Sequence record: OR980947
DNA: 64,000 nt
From: Shigella phage Tf
Direction: 5' to 3' (one strand)
Every line of letters starts with the position of its first letter. The stretch's first letter is position 1. Position numbers and translations under genes: made by a program. Of this stretch, positions 45,759 to 64,000 are shown piece after piece. Under the pieces are notes generated by a model. It saw only the letters and a program-made list of their open reading frames with translations. It was not told where the DNA came from and searched no databases.

Positions 45759-46640
45759 ATGAAGACATCTATTCGTGTTATAATTCATTCACCGACAAAA
45801 GGGTCTCATGAAGAAGAGTTTAACATCATCCAGTTCCCTTCTGGTGAGATTGGTGGACACTTTTCACAAGAGCTTGTTGATTTTACTGCTTATGCAGCAT
45901 CATCTATCAACAATGTGATTATGATTGTAAAAGGTTATGATAAGGACACATTGTTTGCTGTGGCACTCGCTAAAGAAGCAATTGATGATTTAATTCCTCA
46001 TGATTATGCCTTAAAGACTGTCATCTTTTACTACTTACCAAATGCACGATATGACCGTCACATGTTTAAAGGTGATGCAGCAGCTTTGAAGGTTTTTGCT
46101 AAACAGGTTAACGCAATGGGGTTTGGTGCAGTATGTGCAGTTGACCCTCACAGCTATGTACCAGATAACCTGTTTGACTGCTTCCAAAGTATTCCTCAAA
46201 ATGAAATTGCAGTCCACTATGCAAATGACCCACTGGTTGATTACTTAGTAGCCCCAGATGCAGGTGCTGCTAAGAAGATTGCAGAGACTGCTAAAGAGGT
46301 GGATAAACCATATATCACAATGTCTAAGGTGCGCAACCTTAAAACTGGTGAAATTACTGGTATGCGAATCCTTGATGATGTTGATTTGACAGATAAAACT
46401 GTTATGATTCTTGATGATATCTGTGATGGTGGTCGAACCTTCATAGAAGCAGCTAAACATCTTCGTGAAGCAGGTGCAAAACGTGTTGAGCTTTATGTAA
46501 CACATGGTATCTTCTCTAAAGGTGTTGAAAACCTTCTTGACAATGGTATCGACCATATTTACACTACAAACTCTTTAGGAGAAGCTAAAGACCGTAGCTT
46601 AACACATTATAGTCAAGTTACTGTAGCAAACCTTGATTGA
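45759..46640 (+). CDS. prs: ribose-phosphate pyrophosphokinase-like protein (Prs-like; possible ADP-ribose pyrophosphokinase)
   Basis: PRPP-binding motif VMILDDICDGGRTF; ~290 aa; adjacent to NAMPT-like gene. Confidence 0.55.
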   Translation: MKTSIRVIIHSPTKGSHEEEFNIIQFPSGEIGGHFSQELVDFTAYAASSINNVIMIVKGYDKDTLFAVALAKEAIDDLIPHDYALKTVIFYYLPNARYDRHMFKGDAAALKVFAKQVNAMGFGAVCAVDPHSYVPDNLFDCFQSIPQNEIAVHYANDPLVDYLVAPDAGAAKKIAETAKEVDKPYITMSKVRNLKTGEITGMRILDDVDLTDKTVMILDDICDGGRTFIEAAKHLREAGAKRVELYVTHGIFSKGVENLLDNGIDHIYTTNSLGEAKDRSLTHYSQVTVANLD

Positions 46641-46685: not shown

Positions 46686-48467
46686 ATGACTAAATCACTT
46701 TATGCAGTACCAGCAGGTTTAAACGCGGACGCTTACAAGGCATCACATATATATCAGTATCCAGATGCTACGCAATACCTTATGTTGAACCTGACACCAC
46801 GTAGTGACAAATGGTTTAACAGCCCTTTGGCAATTGACGGTGTAGTGGCTTTTGGTATTCAACGTTTCGTTAAAGATTACTTGATAGACCACTGGAACGC
46901 CACTTTCTTTGAACGTGATAAAAAAGAAGCAATTGACGAAATCTTAGAAGTCATGAATGGTGTTCTGGGTAAAGATGCTATCGGTCGAGAGCATTGGGAA
47001 GCACTTCACGACTTAGGTTATCTACCAGTTGAAGTATACGCTGTAGAAGAAGGTACAGTTGTTCCTATGCGTGTACCAATGATTGTCTTCCAGAACACTG
47101 TTTCAGGTTTCCATTGGGTAGCGGGATATCTGGAAGATGCTTTCTCTGCTGAGATTTGGAAGGCTTGTACCATTGCAACTATTGCATTGCATTATAAACG
47201 CATCTGTAAGAAGTGGGCTGACCTTACTTGCGACAATGACTTACATTTACCTTATCAGTGTCATGACTTTGCTATGCGTGGTATGTCCGGCTTTACTGAT
47301 GACGCATTTAATGCTGTAGGCCACTTGACCAGCTTTAAAGGAACTGATAGCTTCCCTGCTGTATACACGGCTAAACGCATCTACGGACAGTCTTACCCAG
47401 TCTCTGATATTGGTGGTTCTGTACCAGCCACTGAACACTCTGTAATGTGTGCAAACATTGCTTGGGAAGGTGGTAATGAATTGATTGAAGAGGAAAGACG
47501 CTTTAAAGGTGAGTTACAAACCTTCCGTCGTTTCTTAACAGAAACTTACCCAACTGGTATTGCAAGTGTTGTTTCAGATACTTATAACTTCTGGAGAACT
47601 GTATCAGTCATATTGCCAGAACTCCGTAAAGAGATTATGGAACGTGATGGCAAACTGGTAATTCGTCCTGATTCTGGAGACCCTGTACATATTGTCACAG
47701 GATACAAAGCAATCCATTTAGAGTGTGCTAAAAAGGCTTATTACGAACACCTAAGTAAGCTGGAAGCCAGCGACACAATGCTGAATGCTGTTCTGAACAT
47801 GAAGCTTGAAAACATCAATTATGGCATTGCTGGATGGCTACTGTCAGAAGGCTACGAAATGGTTGTTGACAGAGAAGACTTTGAAGTTGCTGATACAGTG
47901 CTGTTGAAAAATGCTTATATGGTTGGTTCTGCAAACGTTGTAACACGTCCTGTAGCGGAGATTGATGGAGCTATCAAGACACTGTATAACATCTTTGGAG
48001 GAACTATCAACTCTAAAGGTTTTAAAGTACTGGATGAGCATATCGGGCTTATTTATGGTGACTCTATCACGTTGGAACGTGCAAACGAAATACTGAAGCG
48101 TTTGTATGAAATGGGTTTTGCAAGCTCTAACGTAGTATTTGGTGTAGGTTCTTACACTTACCAGTACATGACTCGTGACACTTTTGCATTTGCTGTCAAA
48201 GCAACTCTTGCAAGCATTGGTGGTAAAGAGATTATGCTTGCAAAAGACCCTAAAACAGACAGTGGCGTTAAGAAATCTGCCTTTGGTGGTGTAGCACCTA
48301 TGTGGGATGGTGATAAGCTGAAAGCTGTAGATGGCTATGGATTCCAGAGTTTTGCAGATGTACTTGACCACCCAGCTTGTGCTTTACGTTTAGTCTTTAG
48401 TGACTCTGAGCAGTTCGGTTACACAACTCTTGGTGATATTCGAAATAATATTGACAAGCAGCTTTAA
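46686..48467 (+). CDS. nadV: nicotinamide phosphoribosyltransferase-like protein (NadV/NAMPT family)
   Basis: 593 aa; general NAMPT-like architecture; adjacent to prs-like gene as in other large lytic phages; family assignment by inspection only. Confidence 0.5.
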   Translation: MTKSLYAVPAGLNADAYKASHIYQYPDATQYLMLNLTPRSDKWFNSPLAIDGVVAFGIQRFVKDYLIDHWNATFFERDKKEAIDEILEVMNGVLGKDAIGREHWEALHDLGYLPVEVYAVEEGTVVPMRVPMIVFQNTVSGFHWVAGYLEDAFSAEIWKACTIATIALHYKRICKKWADLTCDNDLHLPYQCHDFAMRGMSGFTDDAFNAVGHLTSFKGTDSFPAVYTAKRIYGQSYPVSDIGGSVPATEHSVMCANIAWEGGNELIEEERRFKGELQTFRRFLTETYPTGIASVVSDTYNFWRTVSVILPELRKEIMERDGKLVIRPDSGDPVHIVTGYKAIHLECAKKAYYEHLSKLEASDTMLNAVLNMKLENINYGIAGWLLSEGYEMVVDREDFEVADTVLLKNAYMVGSANVVTRPVAEIDGAIKTLYNIFGGTINSKGFKVLDEHIGLIYGDSITLERANEILKRLYEMGFASSNVVFGVGSYTYQYMTRDTFAFAVKATLASIGGKEIMLAKDPKTDSGVKKSAFGGVAPMWDGDKLKAVDGYGFQSFADVLDHPACALRLVFSDSEQFGYTTLGDIRNNIDKQL

Positions 48468-52644: not shown

Positions 52645-53544
52645 ATGGCTAAAGCAGAACTTGATAAATACTACACACCAGACGAAGTAATAAGTGTGTG
52701 TGAAGAGAAGCTACAAAAGGTCTTTAAAGGCTCTATTTCGTGCATTATAGACCCCTGTGCAGGTGACGGAAGATGGAAAGACTCTTTTAAGAGGGTTTGT
52801 CAAGATGTTGTGCTATACGACATCGAACCAGACTCTGAAGATGTTAGCACAAGAGACTTCCTGAAAGATGACTTAGAAATTCCAGATAAGCCTTTTGCGA
52901 TTGTTACCAACCCTCCATTTGGTAAGGCAAACAGTCTGTCTACAAAGTTCTTTAACAAGGCTGCTACAATGAATCCAGACTACATTTGCTTCCTAGTTCC
53001 TATTAACTTTGGGAAGAAGAATCTTAGCAGACTTAGCAGAGAGTACACCTGCATTGATGAAGTAGAGCTACCTAACCTTCATTTTGAAAGGATTGATGGA
53101 GTTGCCTACTCAGCAAAAGAGTCATCACTACGCTGTAACTTCCAAATCTGGAAGAGACAAAAACGGATAGATAAAATTTGTAAGATTGTACCTGTGATAG
53201 TTGATGGTGTAAGAGTCTATAAGCGTGAGAAATTCACACTATACAGACCACCATGTCACAAGATTGATGGTAAAGAGCAGCCAGTTGGTGTTTTAGGTAA
53301 ACTAGATGGCAAAGACTTGTTCACGATTATCACGCATGGTCGCAAGGCTGGTACTGTGAAGGTTTTTGAACCAGATAAAGACAAGGTGTCAGTGAAACAG
53401 TTTATCGAACCACACATAGAAGGACTTTACTCAGCAATCAAACAAGAATGGTTTAATGATTTGAGAGATGGTTTTGCACTGAGTTATGCAGGCTCTATCA
53501 ACTCACAAGAAATCATAAATACTTTAGAAAAACACTTGCATTAA
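52645..53544 (+). CDS. DNA N6-adenine methyltransferase (gamma-class, TaqI-like motif order)
   Basis: N-terminal YYTP, SAM motif IDPCAGDG, catalytic NPPF (TNPPFG). Confidence 0.7.
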   Translation: MAKAELDKYYTPDEVISVCEEKLQKVFKGSISCIIDPCAGDGRWKDSFKRVCQDVVLYDIEPDSEDVSTRDFLKDDLEIPDKPFAIVTNPPFGKANSLSTKFFNKAATMNPDYICFLVPINFGKKNLSRLSREYTCIDEVELPNLHFERIDGVAYSAKESSLRCNFQIWKRQKRIDKICKIVPVIVDGVRVYKREKFTLYRPPCHKIDGKEQPVGVLGKLDGKDLFTIITHGRKAGTVKVFEPDKDKVSVKQFIEPHIEGLYSAIKQEWFNDLRDGFALSYAGSINSQEIINTLEKHLH

Positions 53545-53601
53545 TAAAAGAATTTATATAGTATACCTGTAAACAAACCTAGTAGACGAGAGAGAGCAAC
53601 T

Positions 53602-54441
53602 ATGAAATTCAAAGAGTTCCAGAGCAAAACACCTTGCAAGATTGATTTCGTTTGTGGTGTAGCTTCCTTCTTCATGGGGTACATGGATTGGGCTAACTGT
53701 GCAAAGCCTTACTCAGCAAACCGTAGCATTGAACGACGAATTGCTAAACCTTACCTTAATGAAGAACTTCGTGAGGTGGATTTACGTTCCCGTGTTACGG
53801 GTGTACTGTTCAATGGAGAAGTTATCAACATTGATTCTCATGCGCGTGTAGAGAACTGGAAGAATGGGAAGTTAGGTGCTCCCAAGAACGGCCTTGTCTA
53901 TGTGACCCTGTTTGCTGTTAATTCACAGGAAGAAGTAGATTTCCTCTACGACCAAGAAAACTCACTGGACTCACGAGCCACAAATGGTGACCAAGTTACA
54001 ACTGCAATACTACGCTCTGGTTATAAGCCACAGACAGCGTTCACCAAGAAATTTACTGGTGCTGGCGTGTGGGCCTTATTAGGTCTCCGTGGATGCCTTG
54101 ATGAAGCATTTGTACTCTATCAAGAAGAGCTTAAACTTATTGATGCACTCGGCATTGATAAGGATGAGATGGATAAGTACAAAGAGAAGACTGTAAACGG
54201 TGTTAAGCAGAAGTGTGAACTGCGTAAAAAGTACTCTGCTCCAATTATGGCAGCAATGCTTAAGAGCTTCAAAGAAAACCCTGAAAAAGCTACAAAGTTC
54301 TGGTTGGACTACCGTGATGATGATAAGTCTGTAAGCAGCTTCTTAGATGCTATGAAGACCCAGTATGACCAGAATGGTGGTGTGTTTCAAGGTTATGTAA
54401 TGTCACAAGCTGACGTTGCATTTAGAGCTTATAAGGACTGA
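53602..54441 (+). CDS. ParB/Srx-like domain protein, paralog A (function unknown)
   Basis: ParB-like motif INIDSHARVENW; homologous over most of its length to ORF 57492..58223 (KYSAPIMAAML vs KYSSGIRAAML, FWLDY vs FWEDY); directly downstream of a methyltransferase. Confidence 0.35.
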   Translation: MKFKEFQSKTPCKIDFVCGVASFFMGYMDWANCAKPYSANRSIERRIAKPYLNEELREVDLRSRVTGVLFNGEVINIDSHARVENWKNGKLGAPKNGLVYVTLFAVNSQEEVDFLYDQENSLDSRATNGDQVTTAILRSGYKPQTAFTKKFTGAGVWALLGLRGCLDEAFVLYQEELKLIDALGIDKDEMDKYKEKTVNGVKQKCELRKKYSAPIMAAMLKSFKENPEKATKFWLDYRDDDKSVSSFLDAMKTQYDQNGGVFQGYVMSQADVAFRAYKD

Positions 54442-54765: not shown

Positions 54766-55314
54766 ATGAAGAAATTGATTCTAGGTTTGTGCTTAATGTT
54801 TACAGCACACTTATCTTATGCAGTTGACTGCCCAGAGCTATCAATTAGCCAAAAAGTAAACATGTTAAAAGCTTACCAGTATGGTGAGAATAATATGGGG
54901 AAAGGCTGGGGTATTACTCTAGCAGCTATAGCCTTACAAGAGTCAGAGTTAGGTCTGAAGGTAGAGAATAAAAAGACCCACGACTATGGTATTTTCCAGA
55001 ATCACTTGAAGACTGTTGTAAAGCGTAACAAAATTAGTCCTAATGTGGCTAAAAAGAAACTCTTAAAAGATTTTGATTATGCCGCTAAAGAAACACATAA
55101 AGAGCTTGAGTTTTGGACAAAGGTGCATGGTCAGCCAAAGTCAAAGAAGACTTTACAAAAAGTTTTAGCATCATATAATGCTGGGTATTCGTACAAAATT
55201 CCTAAAGCTAAGAAATACTCTCAAGATGTCTATAACAATATGAAAGTCATCGCTCAATGTGAATTTGCAACAAACATTTCTAAGGTAAACCATGAAAAAA
55301 TTAAGAAAGTCTGA
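54766..55314 (+). CDS. secreted lysozyme-like / lytic transglycosylase-like protein (candidate endolysin)
   Basis: Signal peptide MKKLILGLCLMFTAHLSYA; ALQESELG...DYGIFQ resembles SLT/lysozyme catalytic region. Confidence 0.35.
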   Translation: MKKLILGLCLMFTAHLSYAVDCPELSISQKVNMLKAYQYGENNMGKGWGITLAAIALQESELGLKVENKKTHDYGIFQNHLKTVVKRNKISPNVAKKKLLKDFDYAAKETHKELEFWTKVHGQPKSKKTLQKVLASYNAGYSYKIPKAKKYSQDVYNNMKVIAQCEFATNISKVNHEKIKKV

Positions 55315-55987
55315 TGAAGTATTGTGTCATGCTTATGACTTGCATCCTCATGAGTTAGGTCTTGATTCCTGTGTATGGACTCCAGAACAGTGCAGGGATT
55401 TTGAAGACACTGCAAGAGAAGTTGTATGTTCACTTGAAGAGTTCCACACTTCAGAACCAGTTGTGAACGTTGTGGATAAAGAGACGGGGCAATCTATAGG
55501 TGTAAGACGTGACAGTTTAGTCATAGTCAATAAAGACCTTGTAGAAAAAGGTAACCTCATCTTAGCAGATATTGATGGTGTTCTTACAAATTTTAATCAC
55601 GAAGATTGCTCAACGGAACTGATTGATGGTTCATTTTCACAGTACACTAATTTGCTTGACTCTGTAAGTGCAAAACCAACGTATGTTTTCAATATTATTG
55701 ACGCAATCTCTAATCATGCTACTATTGGACTCTTGACAGCGAGGGGTGAATCTCAGAGAATACCTACTGAGATGTTTTTAAGGCATTACATAGAGCATGA
55801 TTACATGCTTTTTATGCGTGGTTTTGGAACTAACTCTATAAGTGCAGAAAGTTTAAAGGTTAGGATGATTCAGTCTTGCATTCTTCCTTATTTTAATATA
55901 GTATGCTTTATAGAAGATACAGAGAAGAATGTTCAGAAGGTAAACAGAATCCTTCCACACATCAAAACCATGTTAGTTAAACATTGA
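55292..55987 (+). CDS. HAD-superfamily phosphatase-like protein (possible nucleotidase)
   Basis: HAD motif I DIDGVLT, motif II GLLTARG, downstream acidic motif; Cys-rich N-terminal extension. Confidence 0.45.
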   Translation: MKKLRKSDEVLCHAYDLHPHELGLDSCVWTPEQCRDFEDTAREVVCSLEEFHTSEPVVNVVDKETGQSIGVRRDSLVIVNKDLVEKGNLILADIDGVLTNFNHEDCSTELIDGSFSQYTNLLDSVSAKPTYVFNIIDAISNHATIGLLTARGESQRIPTEMFLRHYIEHDYMLFMRGFGTNSISAESLKVRMIQSCILPYFNIVCFIEDTEKNVQKVNRILPHIKTMLVKH

Positions 55988-56496: not shown

Positions 56497-56513
56497 AATT
56501 TCAAGGAGTATTA

Positions 56514-57398
56514 ATGAAGCCGATGTTCAAATATCTTGGTGGTAAAACAAGAATATTAAAAGAGTATGAGCGTTTAGGTGTCTTTCCAGACAACTGTACA
56601 AACTTCTATGACCTGTTTTCAGGTGGTGGTTCAGTGGCTATCTGGGCTTATAACAGATACCCAGAGGCAAAAGTGTTTATTAATGAGATAAATAAACATA
56701 TTATAGGTCTTTACACAACTTTCAGAGATGACTATGAAAACTTCATGGAAGAATTTGAGTACTTGTCAAAAAGGTACTTAGCCTTACCTATGCAGGAAGA
56801 GTATGCCGTGAAAGGTCAGCGTCATAACCGTCTACGCTATAAAATGTATTACAGTGTAAGAGAGGAACTTCTTTTGCTTGGTGAAGAGGGAGCATATGAC
56901 TACAGATACTATGCCAGACAGTTTTTCCTTCAAAAACTAAGTTTTGGTGGTGTATGGCAGACAACTAAAGAGATGAAAGGTCACTATGCAACACCTTGCG
57001 GGTATTTGCTGGAAGAAGAGATTTTCTTCACAAAAACTAAAGAATCACTATCCGAGTTTTACAGTTTTATCACCGATGAAAGGGTAATACTTAGCAGTGA
57101 ACCTTATGACAGGGTTGACATAGAACATGGAGGAGGTACAGTTATTTACTGTGACCCCCCGTATATCAACACCAACCAGAAATATGGTGCAAAGTTTGAC
57201 ATTGAGATGTCTGTAAAATTATGCGAAGATATGATTTCTTGGGGGGAGTTAGGCTCTAAAGTTTTGATGTCAAACTCTCAGTGGGATGGATGGGCAAAGC
57301 TAATTCCTGAAAATTTTAACTTGACAGAGGTTAGTCATTCATACACAATACATGCACAGAGAAGCAAAGATATTAACGAAGTAATTATTCACAACTAA
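56514..57398 (+). CDS. dam: Dam-family DNA N6-adenine methyltransferase (alpha-class)
   Basis: N-terminal YLGGKTRIL, SAM motif DLFSGGGSV, C-terminal catalytic DPPY. Confidence 0.75.
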   Translation: MKPMFKYLGGKTRILKEYERLGVFPDNCTNFYDLFSGGGSVAIWAYNRYPEAKVFINEINKHIIGLYTTFRDDYENFMEEFEYLSKRYLALPMQEEYAVKGQRHNRLRYKMYYSVREELLLLGEEGAYDYRYYARQFFLQKLSFGGVWQTTKEMKGHYATPCGYLLEEEIFFTKTKESLSEFYSFITDERVILSSEPYDRVDIEHGGGTVIYCDPPYINTNQKYGAKFDIEMSVKLCEDMISWGELGSKVLMSNSQWDGWAKLIPENFNLTEVSHSYTIHAQRSKDINEVIIHN

Positions 57399-57491
57399 GG
57401 TATCAAGTTATGGCAAACAGCATCAATGTAGCACTGAATGGCAAGGTTGTTAAAATTCACACTAAGATTATCAGTGTCGAGGATTTCCTTA

Positions 57492-58223
57492 ATGAAAAAC
57501 GTTACAAAGAAAAACCCTCGTCAACGAAATACACTTAAGCGTCTGAAAAGCAAACACCTTAATGGTGACGTATCACCAGACCAAACAGTAGTCCATGTGG
57601 CTAAGTTCGGTAGTTCACTGTTCATCATTGATGGTCACTCACGTCGAGAGGCGTGGAAAGTTGGTAACCTGACACGACCAGAAAACTTGATTGCAGTTAT
57701 ATACCATGTGAACTCCATATTGGATGTCACAGATTTGTACACTCATTTTGACTCTGAGTTAGCAAGAGAAAAACCCTCAGAAGTTTATTACGGAAATATG
57801 AAGATGATTTCTTTCAACCCAGAGTCAGAACTGATGAAAGCATCTTGGGCAACTGCTATTAAATATGTTGCTGCATACTACGGTGTACAACAAGTATCTA
57901 ACACTGAAACAGTTAAATATCTTAATGACTTTAAAAATGAGCTGGAACAAATTGATTCTCTTGAAGTACAGCTTAAAGGTGTAGTAAACGCAAAACGGAA
58001 ATATTCTTCTGGGATTCGTGCAGCAATGTTAATTACACTACGCCTATATGGTGATGCTGCATTTTCCTTTTGGGAAGACTATAATGACTACTGTGAAGGT
58101 ATGTCTAACAAATATGTTACAGAGGTATACCAACTGGCATTACAAGCTGGTCGCGGAGCACAGGCTGATAAGTTGTTGATGAATCAAGCGATTTCACTTG
58201 TCAACTATTACAGTCAAGAATAA
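57492..58223 (+). CDS. ParB/Srx-like domain protein, paralog B (function unknown)
   Basis: Motif FIIDGHSRREAWKVGNL; paralog of ORF 53602..54441; probable ATG at 57492 (gagga RBS) within tracked ORF 57438..58223; directly downstream of Dam methyltransferase. Confidence 0.35.
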   Translation: MKNVTKKNPRQRNTLKRLKSKHLNGDVSPDQTVVHVAKFGSSLFIIDGHSRREAWKVGNLTRPENLIAVIYHVNSILDVTDLYTHFDSELAREKPSEVYYGNMKMISFNPESELMKASWATAIKYVAAYYGVQQVSNTETVKYLNDFKNELEQIDSLEVQLKGVVNAKRKYSSGIRAAMLITLRLYGDAAFSFWEDYNDYCEGMSNKYVTEVYQLALQAGRGAQADKLLMNQAISLVNYYSQE

Positions 58224-58228
58224 TACAC

Positions 58229-58251
58229 AGGCTCCTTCGGGAGCCTTTTTC
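58229..58251 (+). terminator. rho-independent terminator (UUCG tetraloop)
   Basis: ggctcc ttcg ggagcc followed by ttttt. Confidence 0.65.
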
Positions 58252-59375: not shown

Positions 59376-59577
59376 AAAGACACGAAAAATTATCCGGTCA
59401 GCAGTACTCATTGGAAGAAATGAAGTGATTCCTTTTACAGCAAATGATGTGATAATCTACAGGAAAAAATTAGCATTCAGTTATTGCTTACGTGGCTTTA
59501 TCTCCCAGCCATTGGAAGACTTTAAAAGTCGTTGTGGTAAAGGTATCATCATTCAAGAGGCAATTATTCATGGCTGA
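59350..59577 (+). CDS. hypothetical protein
   Basis: 75 aa ORF. Confidence 0.25.
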   Translation: MKVILARDKKTRKIIRSAVLIGRNEVIPFTANDVIIYRKKLAFSYCLRGFISQPLEDFKSRCGKGIIIQEAIIHG

Positions 59578-59770
59578 TTTCTGCAAGAAGTGTGCAATAG
59601 AACATTTTGGTGTTGATACAGGGGACTTGAAAGGTCTCTTCACCAAAGAAGAGTTTGAAGCTGGTTCAGCTATGCCAGTAATCTGTGAAGGTTGTGGATG
59701 TATCTGGGTAGACCATGAAGGGCAACGTGTAAAACCTTCAGAAGATAAAGAATCTTGGGAGAGATGTTAA
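59570..59770 (+). CDS. small cysteine-rich (zinc-binding) protein
   Basis: ATG at 59570; CKKC ... CEGCGC cysteine motifs; 66 aa. Confidence 0.3.
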   Translation: MADFCKKCAIEHFGVDTGDLKGLFTKEEFEAGSAMPVICEGCGCIWVDHEGQRVKPSEDKESWERC

Positions 59771-60556
59771 ATGGGTATTGTAAAAATCATCAATGGTGAT
59801 ATCTTTAATGCTTTTGATAAAGGTAAGTTTGACATCATTGGTCACGGTTGTAATTGTATGAATTTAATGGGTGCAGGTATCGCTGACAAGATTTCTAAAC
59901 TTTACCCAAAAGCATATGAGACCGATACAGAAGTTTACCTATATGCAGGTGGCATAGGTCACAAACCCTGTGAAAATTTACTGGGTAATTTCTCTGTAGC
60001 ACGTTTAAAACAAGGTCGTATAGCTAACCTTTACACTCAGCTTAAAACTGGTAAAGATGCCAGATACAGTGCTTTAGAGTCATCTTTGAAGCAGCTTAAC
60101 AGATACTGTGAAGTTAATCAGTTGAAGAAAGTCGGTTTACCTATGATTGGTGCAGGTATCGGTGGGTTGGACCCTCAAGCCGTCACAGTTATCATCAATC
60201 AGGTGATGAAGAGTGTAGATGTTTATCTATATGTCTATGAAGGAGAGATGTACCACAAGTTACGCTCAGGTTGGAAGAACTACTGTGAACCAGAATACTT
60301 TGCAGGTGTAGTTGTGTTCACGGATAATGCAGTTACCCTCTTCAGACGAAGAAAAGGTAAGATACATCAAAGTAACCCTCCGGTTGAAAAGATGTCTCTG
60401 AGTAACGCTCTAGTTACCCACCTGTCGAAGAGCAATCACAGGATTGCAGTAACATTTGGCAGCGATGCAGATACTTACATCTATGCAAGAACTGATGAGG
60501 ATATCGAAGCAATTTTCTCTTCACCAGAAGTTACCTTCTTAGACGCAAAGAACTAA
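59771..60556 (+). CDS. macrodomain protein (ADP-ribose binding/hydrolase family) with C-terminal extension
   Basis: Macro motifs GDIFNAFDKGKFDIIGHGCNCMNLMGAGIADKI and GLPMIGAGIGGLDP. Confidence 0.6.
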   Translation: MGIVKIINGDIFNAFDKGKFDIIGHGCNCMNLMGAGIADKISKLYPKAYETDTEVYLYAGGIGHKPCENLLGNFSVARLKQGRIANLYTQLKTGKDARYSALESSLKQLNRYCEVNQLKKVGLPMIGAGIGGLDPQAVTVIINQVMKSVDVYLYVYEGEMYHKLRSGWKNYCEPEYFAGVVVFTDNAVTLFRRRKGKIHQSNPPVEKMSLSNALVTHLSKSNHRIAVTFGSDADTYIYARTDEDIEAIFSSPEVTFLDAKN

Positions 60557-60586
60557 GAAACTCTGTAGAATATTCACAATAGATTA

Positions 60587-60635
60587 AGCCTTCCTTATCT
60601 GGTAAATTTTTCAGGTAAGGAAGGCTTTTTTATTT
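60587..60635 (+). terminator. rho-independent terminator
   Basis: agccttcctta ... taaggaaggct hairpin followed by ttttttattt. Confidence 0.65.
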
Positions 60636-60639
60636 CAAG

Positions 60640-60825
60640 ATTGTGCAGGTAGAGTTCTGTAGAGAAATCTGTAGAGAAAATTTTGAACTCCAAAGAGAAA
60701 ATTCATTTTCAAACTGTGCAGGTAATCTCCAAAGAGATTTTTCATTTTCAAAACGTGCAGAGAAAAATCAGGTCGGGCAAGAAAAATCATTTTAGAATTG
60801 TGCAGGTAGGTGGGTGCAGGTGGGG
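60640..60825. repeat. iteron-like direct repeat cluster in a ~500-bp noncoding region
   Basis: gtgcag(g) recurs at about 60643, 60715, 60746, 60800, 60814; tandem ctgtagagaaa x2; cattttcaaaac x2. Confidence 0.6.
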
Positions 60826-61013: not shown

Positions 61014-61077
61014 TTGCATCAACGGAGAGGGAATGACCTTCCCCACTAAATTAACCCTTAAACTAGGAGATTCAAAA

Positions 61078-61266
61078 ATGGTATCAAGAAAAATTAAAGT
61101 TGGCGATGAGGTTAACATTAAGCACGAATACTCTTACAAAATGCTAACTATACGCTCTTATAAGGTTTATCAGGTGGAAGCTATCCACAAAGATAATACT
61201 TTTTCCTTAAAAGGGTATAGCGAACGTTTCCCCGCTGAACTCTTTGAGAAATGGAGCGCGAAATAA
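61078..61266 (+). CDS. small early protein (62 aa)
   Basis: ATG preceded by taggag RBS within conserved leader. Confidence 0.4.
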   Translation: MVSRKIKVGDEVNIKHEYSYKMLTIRSYKVYQVEAIHKDNTFSLKGYSERFPAELFEKWSAK

Positions 61267-61472
61267 TGCTTTACAGTCGTGAATTGATGGTTACAAATAA
61301 CGTTAACACAAATGTAAAACGTTTTTACATGAAAATCTGTGGTGTATGGTCCAGAATATCAGAAGCCGACTATTGCAACTATGTAGAAACGGCAATCAAC
61401 TCTGATTGTTATCTTACAAAGAATACTAAAAAATTTACGAGACAGACAGCAGTTTACTACTACGATATCTAA
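61266..61472 (+). CDS. small early protein (68 aa)
   Basis: ATG overlapping upstream stop (taATG). Confidence 0.3.
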   Translation: MLYSRELMVTNNVNTNVKRFYMKICGVWSRISEADYCNYVETAINSDCYLTKNTKKFTRQTAVYYYDI

Positions 61473-61560
61473 TAAAGTACTTTACAAGGGGCTTATAGTT
61501 CGATAAAGTAAGCCCCAGATAAAGAGCTTTACCACTAAATCCTAAATTGGAGAACTTAAA
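61472..61560 (+). repeat. intergenic repeat cassette type A (hairpin + promoter/RBS leader), copy 1
   Basis: aaagtactttacaaggggcttatagttcgataaagtaagccccagataaagagctttaccactaaatcctaaattggagaac; near-identical at 63129 and 63926, variant at 61816. Confidence 0.6.
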
Positions 61561-61561
61561 A

Positions 61562-61819
61562 ATGGCTATTATCAAAAACGTTGTAATTACTGTAAAGACT
61601 CGTGATGACGCTCGTATCATGGCTAAAAAGTTATGCGGGAAAGTGGTTGACAACGGAAAACAATCTGCTGTAAGGTGGGGCGTGAAGGTTGATAAACAAC
61701 TAACCTTAAAACGCAGTTCAAACAACCTTTTTAAAGGTGTAAAATCACTCGGTAAAGTGAACGTTTTTACCAAAAAAGGCTATAAAATGCACTTATCATT
61801 AACTGGCAATTTAATCTGA
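61562..61819 (+). CDS. small early protein (85 aa)
   Basis: ATG after conserved cassette with ggagaa RBS. Confidence 0.4.
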   Translation: MAIIKNVVITVKTRDDARIMAKKLCGKVVDNGKQSAVRWGVKVDKQLTLKRSSNNLFKGVKSLGKVNVFTKKGYKMHLSLTGNLI

Positions 61820-61908
61820 TAAAGTACTTTACAGGGGGCTTAAAAGCTGATATCTTAAGCCCCAGATAAAGAGCTTTACTAACTAACCTTAAACTAGGAG
61901 ATTCAAAA
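61816..61908 (+). repeat. intergenic repeat cassette type A (variant), copy 2
   Basis: ctgataaagtactttacagggggcttaaaagctgatatcttaagccccagataaagagctttac followed by shared leader ccttaaactaggagattcaaaaATG. Confidence 0.55.
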
Positions 61909-62421
61909 ATGAAAACTGTAGACGCTACCTTTGAAGTTGTAAAAGAAAAATTTTCCATCATTTACGAAGCTGTCAACTGCTACGAACCAAGTCATGCCCT
62001 TGAAGATTGGGAATTTACAGATGACCATCAAGGCGGGGTAACTATAAAAAATCCTAACTATCAACACAATGCATTTAAATATGCAATCCCTTTACATTAC
62101 AGCCTGAAACAGCTTTCGAGTGACTATGCAAAACAAGGCCGGGCAAATCCATCCCGTGAGGCTTATATCAGCTTACAGGAAGAACTGCAAAGGGATTTAG
62201 AAGCTTCAGAATATTACCTATCTGCAAAAGTTGTCGATGCAAACGGGAAAACGGTTTTAGATAGTTTTTCTATTGGTTACGCTTTCGATTGGTGCTATAG
62301 TGACGGCGTCGATTTAGCGGATAGACTAAAAGAGGAAGTGAGCAATTCAGGCGCAGAATCTGAAGTTATGGAACAATTAGAAGCCTTAAAAGATTCAGTG
62401 ATGAATATCTTTAAAAATTAA
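61909..62421 (+). CDS. early protein (170 aa)
   Basis: ATG after shared leader. Confidence 0.4.
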   Translation: MKTVDATFEVVKEKFSIIYEAVNCYEPSHALEDWEFTDDHQGGVTIKNPNYQHNAFKYAIPLHYSLKQLSSDYAKQGRANPSREAYISLQEELQRDLEASEYYLSAKVVDANGKTVLDSFSIGYAFDWCYSDGVDLADRLKEEVSNSGAESEVMEQLEALKDSVMNIFKN

Positions 62422-62437
62422 ATTAAGAGGAAACAGC

Positions 62438-62770
62438 ATGTTAATGATGGGTATCACTGCAATCATTGCCATTGTAGCACTTTATAAGGCATATAAAGCC
62501 TATAATCTGGCAAGTAAGGCAATCACACAACAGGTTAGCAATAGCCTTGTAGAGAGCTTTCTGGAGCGTTTAAGCAATGAGCAATTAAAACGGTTAGAAA
62601 TGAGCTTCAGATTCCAATCAAAAACTTATCAAATCAGCGACATTTTTAAAGAGGATTTTCAGCTTGTCGATGATTATAATTCACTGATAAATGCTTTAAA
62701 TGTCAGTGACTTAAAAGACTACTACGCTGTAATTGTTCAAGAACTGAGCAAACGAAAACAAAATGCTTGA
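62438..62770 (+). CDS. small early protein with N-terminal TM helix (110 aa)
   Basis: Hydrophobic N-terminus MLMMGITAIIAIVALY; stop overlaps next promoter. Confidence 0.35.
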   Translation: MLMMGITAIIAIVALYKAYKAYNLASKAITQQVSNSLVESFLERLSNEQLKRLEMSFRFQSKTYQISDIFKEDFQLVDDYNSLINALNVSDLKDYYAVIVQELSKRKQNA

Positions 62771-62859
62771 CACTGGTTTTTAGATAGATTAAATTACACA
62801 TCAACGGGGAGGGAATGGCCTTCCCACTAAATAAAGTCCTTAAACTAGGAGGTTCTAAA
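62758..62859 (+). repeat. promoter cassette type B, copy 2 (ttgaca-N17-taaatt + leader hairpin)
   Basis: cttgacactggtttttagatagattaaattacacatcaacggggagggaatggccttccc; near-identical to 63624..63727; related to 60981..61077. Confidence 0.6.
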
Positions 62860-63132
62860 ATGTATACTACTAACAACGGTCGCACTTTAAATGCCACACT
62901 ACGTCACTATGTAGATGGTGTCATGCACTTTGAGGATTTACAAGCTGAGCAACACATCTTAGATTGGCAAGTCGCAGGACTCCAAAAAACTGCTACCGGA
63001 TACGGTAAAAAGATTCCAACTAGTTGGAAAGTACACTACGAAGGCCGTTTGCGCAGAATTTATCAGGATGTGCAAAGCAATAGTGCATCGAGTTACATCA
63101 TGGTAAAAGGTAAAAAGCTGCATCTAGTGTAA
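62860..63132 (+). CDS. small early protein (90 aa)
   Basis: ATG after taggag RBS in conserved leader. Confidence 0.4.
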   Translation: MYTTNNGRTLNATLRHYVDGVMHFEDLQAEQHILDWQVAGLQKTATGYGKKIPTSWKVHYEGRLRRIYQDVQSNSASSYIMVKGKKLHLV

Positions 63133-63218
63133 AGTACTTTACAAGGGGCTTATAGTTCGATAAAGTAAGCCCCAGATAAAGAGCTTTACCACTAAATCCT
63201 AAATTGGAGAACTTGAAA
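63129..63218 (+). repeat. intergenic repeat cassette type A, copy 3
   Basis: Near-identical to 61472..61560 including hairpin ggggcttatagttcgataaagtaagcccc. Confidence 0.6.
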
Positions 63219-63623
63219 ATGGCTATTAATAACCGTGAATTATCAATTTTAAAAGCACGTTTGACCGTTAACCGGATTAATGTTATTACGTCATCAGCAC
63301 CAGATGAAACATTGCACAACATTATTGGGAAGATTCAAAGTGTTATCTTAGACGTTGAAAACGTGAAAAACTCATTAACTGACGTTGCAGTAGGTATCAC
63401 GCTAGACGGTGCACAATACGAAATGGCTGACATGTTGGGCAAATCTAAGGTAATGAATAAAGAGCTGGATTTGAAAATGTTTCGTTTTGCCGTGAAAGTA
63501 TGGCTATCCGTCGAATATGATGCTAATTATGCAATCGCTGACTTTTTCGCCACTTGGTTGCAGCGTAATTTGACAAATCACGATTTTCGTAATATCTGCG
63601 ATGCAATCTATTCAGAACTTTAA
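63219..63623 (+). CDS. early protein (134 aa)
   Basis: ATG after conserved cassette. Confidence 0.4.
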   Translation: MAINNRELSILKARLTVNRINVITSSAPDETLHNIIGKIQSVILDVENVKNSLTDVAVGITLDGAQYEMADMLGKSKVMNKELDLKMFRFAVKVWLSVEYDANYAIADFFATWLQRNLTNHDFRNICDAIYSEL

Positions 63624-63727
63624 AAAATTTTCTTGACACTGGTTTTTAGATAGATTAAATTACACATCAACGGGGAGGAAATGACTTCCCCACTAAATAA
63701 AAACCCTTAAACTAGGAGATTCAAAAA
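63624..63727 (+). repeat. promoter cassette type B, copy 3
   Basis: tcttgacactggtttttagatagattaaattacacatcaacggggaggaaatgacttcccc then shared RBS leader. Confidence 0.6.
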
Positions 63728-63925
63728 ATGGCTATTGTTAACGGTTTAAACATTGAAACTACTCACATCAAAGATATCAAAGTCGGTGATATAGTCCTTT
63801 TTCACGGCGTAGAAAGAACTGTTACTGAAAAGGATATCAAGGAGGATTCATTCATGGGCCGGACTCTCTTTGGTGATTCATATTGCTTAGGTTACCTTGC
63901 AGTTTTAAAAGTTGTCAAAAATTAA
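63728..63925 (+). CDS. small early protein (65 aa)
   Basis: ATG after shared leader. Confidence 0.4.
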   Translation: MAIVNGLNIETTHIKDIKVGDIVLFHGVERTVTEKDIKEDSFMGRTLFGDSYCLGYLAVLKVVKN

Positions 63926-64000
63926 CTGATAAAGTACTTTACAAGGGGCTTATAGTTCGATAAAGTAAGCCCCAGATAAAGAGCTTTACCACTAAATCCT
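63926..64000 (+). repeat. intergenic repeat cassette type A, copy 4 (truncated by window end)
   Basis: ctgataaagtactttacaaggggcttatagttcgataaagtaagccccagataaagagctttaccactaaatcct. Confidence 0.55.

What the first reader, a model, noticed from the sequence alone, without database searches (positions are those of the whole stretch)
59771..60556. Macrodomain protein in a phage: possible counter to ADP-ribosylation-based defence
The N-terminal ~140 aa carry macrodomain hallmarks (GDIF...GHGCNCMNLMGAGIADKI and GLPMIGAGIGGLDP). Macrodomains bind or hydrolyse ADP-ribose and ADP-ribosyl modifications. In a lytic phage that also encodes a Prs-like/NAMPT-like pair, this suggests removal of ADP-ribose marks or processing of ADP-ribose-derived molecules.
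Basis: partly seen in the sequence, partly recalled or inferred. Interest (0 to 1): 0.5.

Follow-up and report, generated by a model that had tools for sequence, protein, structure and literature searches.

The report
Felix O1-type phage macrodomain hydrolase
This Felix O1-like phage gene encodes an ADP-ribose-processing macrodomain enzyme fused to a small domain of unknown function; close relatives in other phages disarm bacterial NAD+/ADP-ribose defences, so it is most likely an ordinary counter-defence enzyme with one unusual add-on.

Summary
ORF 59771..60556 (+) encodes a 261-aa protein whose first ~156 residues are a genuine macrodomain (Pfam above cut-off; confident model; nearest folds TARG1, DarG, Poa1p). 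The window is a Felixounavirus, and the protein is 98.5% identical to Bas63 gp95 ("putative phosphatase").

The macro core belongs to a phage clade with invariant His25, Asn28 and Gln90. Two members have been tested: T4 Tk.4 ("AdfM") protects against DarTG2, and Vibrio phage Gary Adpp converts ADPR-1''-phosphate to ADPR for the NAD+-rebuilding pathway NARP1. The window carries NARP1 11.3 kb upstream. Sequence, phylogeny and profile scores cannot tell which role applies.

Residues 157-261 form an orphan domain with no fold or sequence match outside this family. It is under purifying selection but evolves faster than the core.

The gene is dispensable in the laboratory and is an allelic-replacement hotspot.

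Verdict: a plausible counter-defence enzyme of a known kind, with a new architecture. No experiment exists for this family.

The parts
59771..60556 (+). Complete gene for the 261-aa macrodomain + C-terminal-domain protein, ortholog of Bas63 gp95 'putative phosphatase'
   Evidence: ORF. It is 98.5% identical to bas63_0095. PHROG 335 E=1.6e-113. All 21 unique Felixounavirus alleles are intact.
59771..60238 (+). Macro domain, aa 1-156. Key codons are H25 (59843-59845), N28 (59852-59854), the MGAGIA loop (aa 33-38), N86-L-Y-T-Q90 (60026-60040) and the P124-x-IGAGIGGLD loop.
   Evidence: Pfam PF01661 32.3 bits. Foldseek matches TARG1, Poa1p and DarG. Invariant columns. Residue table against characterised enzymes. 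dN/dS 0.066.
60239..60553 (+). Linker helix plus orphan C-terminal domain, aa 157-261: six beta-strands and a C-terminal helix. Only P174 and G179 are invariant and Y236 is nearly so.
60586..60627 (+). Intrinsic-terminator-like hairpin (17-bp stem followed by a T-run) 30 nt after the stop codon. It ends the transcription unit.
   Evidence: sequence read.
58229..58246 (+). Upstream terminator-like hairpin. Between it and the macro gene lie the spanin genes and four small ORFs with no gap, so co-transcription is likely (inferred).
   Evidence: Bas63 annotation.
45759..46640 (+). Adps (Prs-like ADP-ribose pyrophosphokinase), first NARP1 enzyme. Not contiguous with the macro gene; a possible downstream user of its product ADPR (inferred).
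   Evidence: Pfam Pribosyltran and Pribosyl_synth. It is 77.1% identical to the validated bas63_0079.
46686..48467 (+). Namat (NAMPT-like nicotinamide ADP-ribose transferase), second NARP1 enzyme. Its end lies 11.3 kb upstream of the macro gene start.
   Evidence: Pfam NAPRTase and NAMPT_N. It is 97.3% identical to the validated bas63_0080.

Best explanation
The gene encodes a catalytically competent ADP-ribose hydrolase of the phage Tk.4/Adpp macrodomain clade. This clade is a sister of the cellular Poa1p/TARG1/DarG group. The enzyme is fused to a C-terminal domain found only in the Ounavirinae lineage.

Mechanism. The macro cleft binds the ADP-ribose moiety through the Gly-rich loops MGAGIA and IGAGIGG. 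With His25, Asn28 and Gln90 it hydrolyses whatever is attached to C1'' of the distal ribose and releases free ADP-ribose.

Biological role. It is a dispensable counter-defence enzyme with two candidate substrates that are not mutually exclusive. (a) ADPR-1''-phosphate made by RES-type NADases (aRES); the ADPR produced would then be turned back into NAD+ by the phage's own NARP1 enzymes acting in trans (about 40%). (b) ADP-ribosyl-thymidine placed on phage DNA by DarT2, as for T4 Tk.4/AdfM (about 45%). The C-terminal domain is probably a targeting or partner-binding module and not a second catalytic site.

Shown here: the fold, the motif conservation, clade membership, the genomic linkage to NARP1, purifying selection, and dispensability of the near-identical Bas63 gene. 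Inferred: catalysis, the substrate(s), the anti-defence role, and the function of the C-terminal domain.
For: Macro fold and family.

Shared active-site set. H25, N28, the MGxG[IV]A loop, N86 and Q90 are identical in the window protein, T4 Tk.4 and the Adpp proteins. In Gary Adpp the H24A mutation, equivalent to H25 here, was the inactivating Adpp mutant. A conserved active-site Asn matters in PhiKZ AdfM.

Homolog functions. A tk.4 knockout sensitises T4 to DarTG2. Purified Adpp converts ADPR-1P to ADPR and extends NARP1 against aRES.

Similarity. BLASTP E-values are 2e-23 to 2e-24 to Tk.4, 5e-20 and 5e-17 to NARP1-operon macros, and 1.6e-12 to Gary Adpp. NARP1-linked macros arise in at least three or four separate lineages of this clade, which suggests the phosphatase activity is widespread in it.

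Context. NARP1 orthologs are present in the window and validated in Bas63. NARP1 lies 7.5-9.6 kb upstream in every Ounavirinae locus where the flank reaches that far. aRES homologs are listed from Escherichia and Salmonella genomes.

Accessory-gene signature. Bas63 gene 95 has PhageMaP scores of 0.6-1.1, where values below 0 mean essential. Some Felixounaviruses carry a replacement allele only 41% identical inside a backbone that is otherwise 96-99% identical (Namat, rIIA). dN/dS is 0.066 for the macro core and 0.185 for the C-terminal domain.
Against: No biochemical or genetic test exists for any member of this two-domain family. The PhageMaP paper's text never mentions DarTG, and aRES was described later.

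The TARG1/DarG catalytic Lys is replaced by Gln and the TARG1 Asp by Gly. T4 Tk.4 has the same replacements, and its evidence is genetic only.

The gene is not in the NARP1 operon. It starts 11.3 kb downstream of Namat, beyond rIIA/rIIB and at least one terminator, and no Escherichia or Salmonella phage appears in the published NARP1-associated list.

The Kolesnikvirus ortholog has Gln in place of His25.

The gene follows the spanin genes with no obvious promoter of its own, so expression timing is unknown.

Phylogeny and DarG-profile scores cannot assign the substrate.
Confidence: 0.65

Rival explanations
1. Narrow reading A. The protein is purely a T4 Tk.4/AdfM-type DNA repair enzyme. It removes DarT2 ADP-ribose from thymidines in phage ssDNA, NARP1 is irrelevant to it, and the C-terminal domain targets DNA, the replisome or DarT2 itself.
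For: The best characterised homolog by E-value is Tk.4. Like tk.4, the gene stands alone and is not in a NARP1 operon. The GGLD loop resembles the DarG GGLDW loop, whereas Tk.4 and Adpp have AGGDW. The Kolesnikvirus ortholog has an amide (Gln) at position 25, where DarG has Asn. An extra domain makes more sense for a macromolecular target. DarG is the only NCBIfam and PADLOC hit.
Against: The DarG catalytic Lys is absent. The DarG profile score is no higher than for the validated phosphatase Gary Adpp (47.8 vs 44.6 bits). The C-terminal domain has no conserved positive charge (pI 4.6-9.5) and no similarity to any solved structure. The T4 evidence is genetic only.
Confidence: 0.3
2. Narrow reading B. 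The protein is purely a trans-encoded Adpp. It is an ADPR-1''-phosphate phosphatase whose only role is to feed NARP1, against aRES-type NADases and possibly to recover phosphate-bearing breakdown products of the NARP1 intermediate ADPR-PP.
For: NARP1 is present and validated in this genus. Poa1p-like macros have been recruited to NARP1 operons repeatedly from this clade. His25, the residue mutated to inactivate Adpp, is conserved. ADPR-cyclic-phosphate was seen as a decay product of ADPR-PP in Bas63 infections. Close single-domain relatives lie 0.3-3.6 kb from NARP1 genes (L046, L050).
Against: The gene is 11.3 kb and at least one terminator away from NARP1, and this arrangement is stable across the whole subfamily. 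Identity to the tested Adpp is only 26-27%. A small-molecule phosphatase has no obvious need for an extra domain. The Kolesnikvirus ortholog carries H25Q although NARP1 is present there.
Confidence: 0.25
3. The protein has an RNA-repair housekeeping role like yeast Poa1p. It clears ADPR-1''-phosphate generated when a 2'-phosphate is removed during repair of tRNA cut by host anticodon nucleases, working with the phage polynucleotide kinase.
For: A polynucleotide kinase gene lies 3.8 kb upstream in the same gene block, at 55292..55987. Poa1p is a structural neighbour. Such systems are predicted for phages in the literature.
Against: No Tpt1/KptA-type 2'-phosphotransferase, 2H phosphoesterase or RNA ligase turned up among the neighbouring genes I examined. 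The rest of the window was not screened. Sequence similarity to Poa1p is weak (E=2e-5, N-terminal 55 aa only).
Confidence: 0.07
4. The protein hydrolyses or sequesters an ADP-ribose-based immune signal, for example Thoeris II histidine-ADPR or cyclic ADPR isomers. This would blunt signalling and could also feed NARP1.
For: Macrodomains bind His-ADPR in ThsA. Another phage enzyme, RyDEP, converts cADPR signals into ADPR for NARP1. The hypothesis that phage macros target soluble ADPR derivatives is in the literature.
Against: No member of this clade has been shown to act on such signals. The window protein has no detectable similarity to ThsA macro models.
Confidence: 0.08
5. The GenBank labels are literally correct. 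The protein is a YmdB/MacroD-type O-acetyl-ADP-ribose deacetylase or an RNase III regulator that adjusts host physiology, or it reverses ADP-ribosylation by a phage-encoded transferase.
For: Some records are annotated 'ymdB: O-acetyl-ADP-ribose deacetylase'. Many macrodomains deacetylate OAADPr in vitro (established knowledge).
Against: The closest sequences and folds are TARG1, Poa1p and DarG, not MacroD or YmdB. The labels are generic pipeline names. No ADP-ribosyltransferase was noticed near the gene.
Confidence: 0.05

Closest known systems
T4 Tk.4, named AdfM in the HIDEN-SEQ preprint (10.1101/2025.11.20.689424)
   Same: It belongs to the same phage macrodomain clade, with 34-36% identity over ~155 aa (E=2e-24). 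H25, G26, C27, N28, C29, the MGxG[IV]A loop and N-L-Y-T-Q are identical. It is also a stand-alone gene and is likewise annotated 'phosphatase'.
   Different: Tk.4 is a single domain of 159 aa. The window protein has an extra 105-aa C-terminal domain, lacks the Trp of the GGDW loop (GGLDP instead), and carries an 8-10 residue insertion after helix 2. T4 has no NARP1. Anti-DarTG2 activity has not been tested for the window family.
Adpp, the ADPR-1''-phosphate phosphatase of the NARP1-AP operon (Vibrio phage Gary; 10.64898/2026.01.28.702374)
   Same: It is in the same clade and has the same His/Asn/Gln set. The His that was mutated in Adpp (H24A) is H25 here. Both phages encode NARP1.
   Different: Identity is only 26-27%. 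Adpp sits between Adps and Namat, whereas this gene starts 11.3 kb downstream in another transcription unit. Adpp has no C-terminal domain.
DarG antitoxin and the DarG-type phage protein PhiKZ gp104 (also named AdfM; PMC13309987)
   Same: All have a macro fold (target TM ~0.80). DarG is the only NCBIfam and PADLOC hit. The overall layout is the same as DarG: an N-terminal macro domain followed by a second domain. The GGLD loop is similar.
   Different: The window protein scores 47.9 bits against a 250-bit equivalog cut-off, and only the macro half matches. The DarG Lys is Gln here and the DarG Asn at position 25 is His. The C-terminal domain is unrelated to anything solved. There is no DarT partner. 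PhiKZ gp104 scores 132.9 bits on the DarG profile against 47.8 for the window protein.
Yeast Poa1p and human TARG1/OARD1
   Same: They are the nearest solved folds (TARG1 E=9e-11, target TM 0.83-0.87; Poa1p 0.77). Poa1p shares the H-x-C-N-C motif.
   Different: TARG1 K84 and D125 correspond to Q90 and G131 here. Poa1p has Ser at position 90 and Phe at 131. Both are cellular single-domain enzymes with other physiological roles.

Membership tests
Macro domain superfamily (Pfam PF01661) | Profile match above the curated gathering score | tested here: met
   32.3 bits against a cut-off of 22, E=1e-7, aa 25-141.
Macro domain superfamily (Pfam PF01661) | Three-layer alpha/beta/alpha macro fold | tested here: met
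   AlphaFold2 model with pLDDT 89. The top 50 Foldseek PDB hits are almost all macrodomains; the rest are designed serine hydrolases (OSH55 series). Target TM reaches 0.87.
Macro domain superfamily (Pfam PF01661) | Gly-rich loops that hold the ADP-ribose diphosphate | tested here: met
   M33-G-A-G-I-A38 and I126-G-A-G-I-G-G132 are invariant or nearly so in the family.
Macro domain superfamily (Pfam PF01661) | Binds ADP-ribose | not testable with these tools
   Needs ITC, crystallography or a co-folding tool with ligands.
Phage Tk.4/Adpp macrodomain clade (PHROG 335; Poa1p-like) | H-x-[CA]-N-C ... MGxG[IV]A ... N-x-[YH]-x-Q ... P-x-[IM]G-x-G motif set | tested here: met
   All positions are present, and they are identical to T4 Tk.4 at positions 25-29 and 86-90. 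PHROG 335 E=1.6e-113.
Phage Tk.4/Adpp macrodomain clade (PHROG 335; Poa1p-like) | Single-domain protein of ~150-180 aa | tested here: not met
   The protein is 261 aa with a separate folded C-terminal domain. The two-domain proteins form their own clade with 100% bootstrap.
NARP1-AP pathway (Adps-Adpp-Namat) | Macro gene within the NARP1 operon (published criterion: within two genes) | tested here: not met
   The gene starts 11.3 kb downstream of the end of Namat, with rIIA/rIIB and terminators between them. The same separation is seen in the Ounavirinae loci where the flank reaches NARP1. The family is absent from the published list.
NARP1-AP pathway (Adps-Adpp-Namat) | Adps and Namat present in the same genome | tested here: met
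   Genes at 45759..46640 and 46686..48467 are 77% and 97% identical to the validated Bas63 proteins.
NARP1-AP pathway (Adps-Adpp-Namat) | ADPR-1''-phosphate phosphatase activity | not testable with these tools
   Needs an enzyme assay (LC-MS), as was done for Gary Adpp.
AdfM (anti-DarT factor, macrodomain) | Protects the phage against DarTG2, or removes ADP-ribose from DarT2-modified ssDNA | not testable with these tools
   Shown only for T4 Tk.4 (genetics) and PhiKZ gp104 (biochemistry).
DarG antitoxin (NCBIfam NF048014) | Equivalog score of at least 250 bits over both domains | tested here: not met
   47.9 bits, covering model positions 3-153 of 338 only.
DarG antitoxin (NCBIfam NF048014) | Catalytic Lys in the F-P-T-K motif (K80 of Thermus DarG; numbering from the literature, recalled) | tested here: not met
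   The aligned residue is Gln90.
DarG antitoxin (NCBIfam NF048014) | Adjacent DarT toxin gene | tested here: not met
   The neighbouring ORFs are 66-115-aa proteins of unknown function plus the spanins. None matches a toxin family.
TARG1/OARD1 | Lys84/Asp125 catalytic pair (numbering from the literature, recalled) | tested here: not met
   These align to Gln90 and Gly131 in both phmmer and MAFFT alignments.
MacroD/YmdB O-acetyl-ADP-ribose deacetylases (label in some GenBank records) | Closest relatives are MacroD-type enzymes | tested here: not met
   The best sequence and fold matches are TARG1, Poa1p and DarG. MacroD-like viral Mac1 domains rank lower, and no YmdB chain appears among the listed hits.

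The most novel reading that the evidence does not exclude
The fast-evolving C-terminal domain, which is exclusive to this family, may be a protein-binding module. In that case the protein would be a two-pronged 'orphan antitoxin' built like DarG. The macro half would reverse or recycle the product of a host NAD+-consuming defence enzyme. The C-terminal half would dock onto a variable host defence protein such as DarT2 or a RES-type NADase, or onto the phage's own NARP1 enzymes. The allelic replacement seen between otherwise near-identical Felixounaviruses would then reflect matching to different host variants.
Probability: 0.15. Interest if true: 0.65.

Novelty: new variant of a known kind. 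Interest (0 to 1): 0.4.

Why it matters
Felix O1-like phages are widely used for Salmonella and E. coli diagnostics and biocontrol. Their counter-defence repertoire affects which hosts they can infect.

If this enzyme feeds NARP1 in trans, the published operon-based count of extended NARP1 pathways (15% of NARP1 phages) underestimates them. Resistance to RES-type NAD+ depletion could then be a subfamily-wide trait of Ounavirinae.

If the enzyme instead reverses DarT2, it extends the newly described AdfM function to another large phage group.

The His/Asn/Gln active site raises a mechanistic question. One phage macro clade lacking the DarG/TARG1 lysine appears to handle both a phosphate ester and an N-glycosidic DNA adduct at C1''. 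How it does so could be tested directly with this protein and its natural divergent alleles.

The orphan C-terminal domain is the only truly unexplained part.

Tried and rejected
1. A word-index homolog search with the C-terminal 105 aa alone returned nothing, not even close relatives. This was a limit of the tool. The exhaustive profile search replaced it.

3. I tested the C-terminal domain as a conserved nucleic-acid binder. Net charge and pI are not conserved (4.6-9.5), so this is not supported.

4. I tested the small Cys-rich ORF abutting the start codon (59570..59770) as a conserved partner. It is not conserved in the distant homolog loci, so I rejected it.

5. Phylogeny cannot assign the protein to the AdfM or Adpp groups, because deep nodes have 2-45% bootstrap support.

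6. DarG-profile scores do not discriminate, because the validated phosphatase Adpp scores the same as the window protein.

7. PhageMaP data for Bas63 gene 95 show dispensability only, and no relevant defence systems were in that panel.

8. The Bas63 cryo-EM paper and the BASEL paper hold nothing on this gene.

9. Hits P0037, P0038, P0040, P0042 and P0043 from the C-terminal profile search are giant or repetitive proteins. I judged them to be noise.
Full report
**1. The observation**

An ATG-to-TAA ORF lies at exactly 59771..60556 on the + strand and encodes 261 aa. It contains the quoted strings GDIF, GHGCNCMNLMGAGIADKI and GLPMIGAGIGGLDP.
- Pfam Macro (PF01661) matches aa 25-141 with 32.3 bits, above the gathering score of 22.
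- PHROG 335 ('phosphatase') matches aa 1-260 with E=1.6e-113.
- phmmer against PDB sequences finds TARG1/OARD1, Thermus DarG and coronavirus Mac1.
- An AlphaFold2 model built on 34 homologs is confident (pLDDT 89, pTM 0.88).
- Its nearest solved folds are TARG1 (E=9e-11, target TM 0.83-0.87), DarG (~0.80) and Poa1p (~0.77).

The macro domain spans aa 1-156.

**2. Where the window comes from**

The region is 92-93% identical in DNA to about 200 Felixounavirus genomes (Felix O1-like myoviruses of E. coli and Salmonella). The protein is 98.5% identical to bas63_0095 of phage Bas63/JohannRWettstein, annotated 'putative phosphatase'. Other records call it 'O-acetyl-ADP-ribose deacetylase', 'ymdB' or 'hypothetical protein'. 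Full-length relatives occur in about 257 phage records. The N-terminal ~155 aa alone has relatives in about 2,800 records, mostly T4-like phages where the gene is tk.4.

**3. What the macro core is**

An alignment of the family and its single-domain relatives leaves these residues invariant: H25, G26, N28, C29, M33, G36, A38, G72, N86, L87, T89, Q90, P124, G127 and G129.

I compared the protein with sequences of characterised enzymes. Poa1p was verified residue for residue against 6LFQ. The DarG sequences were taken from PDB alignments. The Adpp sequences came from the supplement of the aRES preprint. PhiKZ gp104 came from its GenBank record. The residue table shows the following.

| Position | Window, T4 Tk.4, Adpp | Poa1p | TARG1 | DarG | PhiKZ gp104 |
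|---|---|---|---|---|---|
| 25 | His | His (H23) | His | Asn | Ile |
| 28 | Asn | Asn | Ser | Asn | Asn |
| 90 | Gln | Ser | Lys (K84) | Lys | Lys |

At the position of TARG1 Asp125 the window protein has Gly131.

So the TARG1/DarG catalytic residues are absent. The His/Asn/Gln set of the phage clade is intact and identical to that of the two phage relatives that have been tested.

**4. What those relatives do**

- T4 tk.4 was the single significant HIDEN-SEQ hit for growth on a DarTG2 host. A clean knockout sensitised T4, and the gene was named adfM.
- Independently, the DarG-type macro protein PhiKZ gp104 was also named AdfM. It removes ADP-ribose from DarT2-modified ssDNA in vitro, and a mutant of a conserved Asn is impaired. 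gp104 is a true DarG relative (E=9e-25 to Mtb DarG; 132.9 bits on the PADLOC DarG model). It is only distantly related to the window protein (25% identity).
- In the aRES preprint, RES-domain proteins cleave NAD+ to nicotinamide and ADPR-1''-phosphate, which NARP1 cannot use. About 15% of NARP1 operons carry a Poa1p-like macro gene, Adpp. The Vibrio phage Gary enzyme converts ADPR-1P to ADPR, and the three-gene operon overcomes aRES. H24A is the Adpp mutant built for the inactivation test.

The window protein gives these BLASTP E-values: 2e-23 to Tk.4, 5e-20 and 5e-17 to two NARP1-operon macros, and 1.6e-12 to Gary Adpp.

**5. Can the role be assigned?**

No.
- In a neighbour-joining tree the two-domain proteins form their own clade (100% bootstrap). 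This clade is separate from the Tk.4 clade (100%) and from at least three NARP1-associated lineages. Deep nodes have 2-45% support.
- The only NCBIfam and PADLOC hit is DarG, on the macro half alone (47.9 bits against a 250-bit cut-off). The validated phosphatase Gary Adpp scores the same (44.6 bits), other NARP1-operon macros score 40-54, and Tk.4 scores 27.5. Resemblance to DarG is therefore a property of the whole clade.
- Weak clues favour a DNA or other macromolecular substrate: the stand-alone position, a GGLD loop like DarG, Gln at position 25 in the Kolesnikvirus ortholog where DarG has Asn, and the extra domain.
- Weak clues favour the NARP1-feeder role: the genome context, and the repeated recruitment of this clade into NARP1 operons.

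**6. Genome context**

The NARP1 pair lies at 45759..46640 (Adps) and 46686..48467 (Namat). These are 77% and 97% identical to Bas63 gp79 and gp80. Deleting those two genes sensitises Bas63 to SIR2-HerA, and their products rebuild NAD+ from ADPR and nicotinamide.

The macro gene starts 11.3 kb downstream of the end of Namat, after rIIA, rIIB, a polynucleotide kinase and the spanins. It ends a gene string bounded by terminator-like hairpins at 58229..58246 and 60586..60627. No convincing promoter of its own was found, so expression timing is unknown.

The same layout (NARP1, rIIA, rIIB, PNK, spanins, long macro gene) holds in distant homolog contigs (33-36% identity). It also holds in a Kolesnikvirus. 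All 30 long-ORF loci from IMG/VR sit in this rIIA/rIIB-PNK-macro synteny, and NARP1 lies 7.5-9.6 kb upstream wherever the flank reaches it. No two-domain gene lies inside a NARP1 operon. Some single-domain relatives lie 0.3-3.6 kb from NARP1 genes (L046, L050). The co-occurrence with NARP1 is thus complete, but it is a lineage effect and not independent evidence.

**7. The C-terminal domain (aa 157-261)**

The domain folds as a linker helix, six beta-strands and a C-terminal helix. Its pLDDT is 78-92 in the full-length model and 78 when modelled alone.
- It has no Pfam family.
- An exhaustive HMMER profile search of 1.84 billion representative proteins gave 11 hits. Only macro fusions or fragments of them were credible.
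- The viral structure library matched only its own family.
- Only P174 and G179 are invariant, and Y236 is nearly so.
- Net charge is not conserved (pI 4.6-9.5).
- It diverges faster than the core in every comparison: 54/50/24/17% identity against 78/75/50/37%.
- It is still under purifying selection (dN/dS 0.185 against 0.066 for the core; 21 unique intact alleles).

It is therefore a real, functional orphan module. Its properties suit partner binding or targeting better than catalysis. This last point is inference.

**8. Accessory-gene signatures**

PhageMaP scores for Bas63 gene 95 are 0.6-1.1 on laboratory strains and about 1.0 in the defence-strain columns retrieved. Values below 0 mean essential. 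DarTG does not occur in that paper's text, and aRES was described later.

Two IMG/VR Felixounaviruses (L038, L039) have Namat 98-99% and rIIA 96% identical to the window, yet their macro protein is only 41% identical. DNA homology stops at window position 59913, inside the gene, and resumes at 60742, beyond the terminator. Such allelic replacement is typical of genes involved in host-phage conflict.

**9. Verdict**

- I consider catalytic competence likely (about 0.8). The protein is a macrodomain hydrolase of the phage Tk.4/Adpp clade.
- A counter-defence role is probable (about 0.65).
- The physiological substrate is unresolved between DarT2-modified DNA (about 45%) and ADPR-1''-phosphate feeding NARP1 in trans (about 40%). 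The two are not exclusive.
- The macro half alone is a new member of a known kind. The conserved fusion to an orphan domain makes the protein a new architectural variant.
- No direct experiment exists for this family. The decisive assays are listed under next steps.

Noticed in passing
window 52645..54441 and 56509..58223: There are two insertions relative to Bas63 and other Felixounaviruses. Each is a methyltransferase-like gene followed by a PHROG 2615 protein. The first pair is 52645..53544 (weak N6_Mtase match) plus 53602..54441. The second pair is 56514..57398 (D12/Dam methyltransferase, E=1.5e-23) plus 57438..58223. DNA homology to relatives breaks at 56508 and resumes at 58213. They look like two related mobile two-gene modules.
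   Followed up: partly
window 61017..64000: Small genes downstream of the macro terminator are each preceded by one of two repeated 80-100-nt cassettes. Each cassette has a promoter-like TTGACA/TTTACA box, a GC-rich hairpin and a conserved ribosome-binding site ending in AAAAATG. There are 3-4 copies of each type at 73-99% identity. They are probably repeated promoter/5'-leader units.
   Followed up: partly
window 60688..60805: Three imperfect 34-nt direct repeats (spacing 39 and 45 nt; 71-85% identity to the reference copy) lie immediately after the macro gene terminator. Their function is unknown.
   Followed up: no
window 59570..59770: A 66-aa Cys-rich ORF (CxxC...CxxCxC, zinc-ribbon-like; PHROG 2210; ortholog of bas63_0094) ends with a stop codon that directly abuts the macro ATG. 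One distant homolog locus (L005) also has a small CxxC...CxxC ORF in this position, but without sequence similarity. Another (L004) does not.
   Followed up: yes
window 45759..46640 versus 46686..48467: The two NARP1 genes differ sharply in similarity to Bas63. Adps is 77% identical and the adjacent Namat is 97%, so the NARP1 operon is itself mosaic.
   Followed up: no
L038 10001-10780 and L039 10001-10780 (IMG/VR Felixounavirus contigs): These loci carry a divergent macro allele, 41% identical overall (58/50/24% for aa 1-48, 49-156 and 157-end), in a backbone that is otherwise 90-99% identical. The recombination junction lies inside the gene, near codon 48.
   Followed up: yes
L011 13998-14780 (Erwinia phage vEam_W_25) and L041: The Kolesnikvirus ortholog (260 aa) has Gln in place of His25, the residue mutated to inactivate Adpp. 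Its C-terminal half is too diverged for BLAST to detect.
   Followed up: partly
window 55292..55987: A polynucleotide kinase gene (PHROG 3970, E=1.6e-134) lies in the same gene block and is conserved in synteny with the macro gene across Ounavirinae. It hints at an RNA-repair function nearby.
   Followed up: no
literature: The name AdfM has been given independently to two distantly related phage macro proteins. T4 Tk.4 has the His/Asn/Gln active-site type. PhiKZ gp104 is DarG-type with the catalytic Lys. This could mislead annotation transfer.
   Followed up: yes
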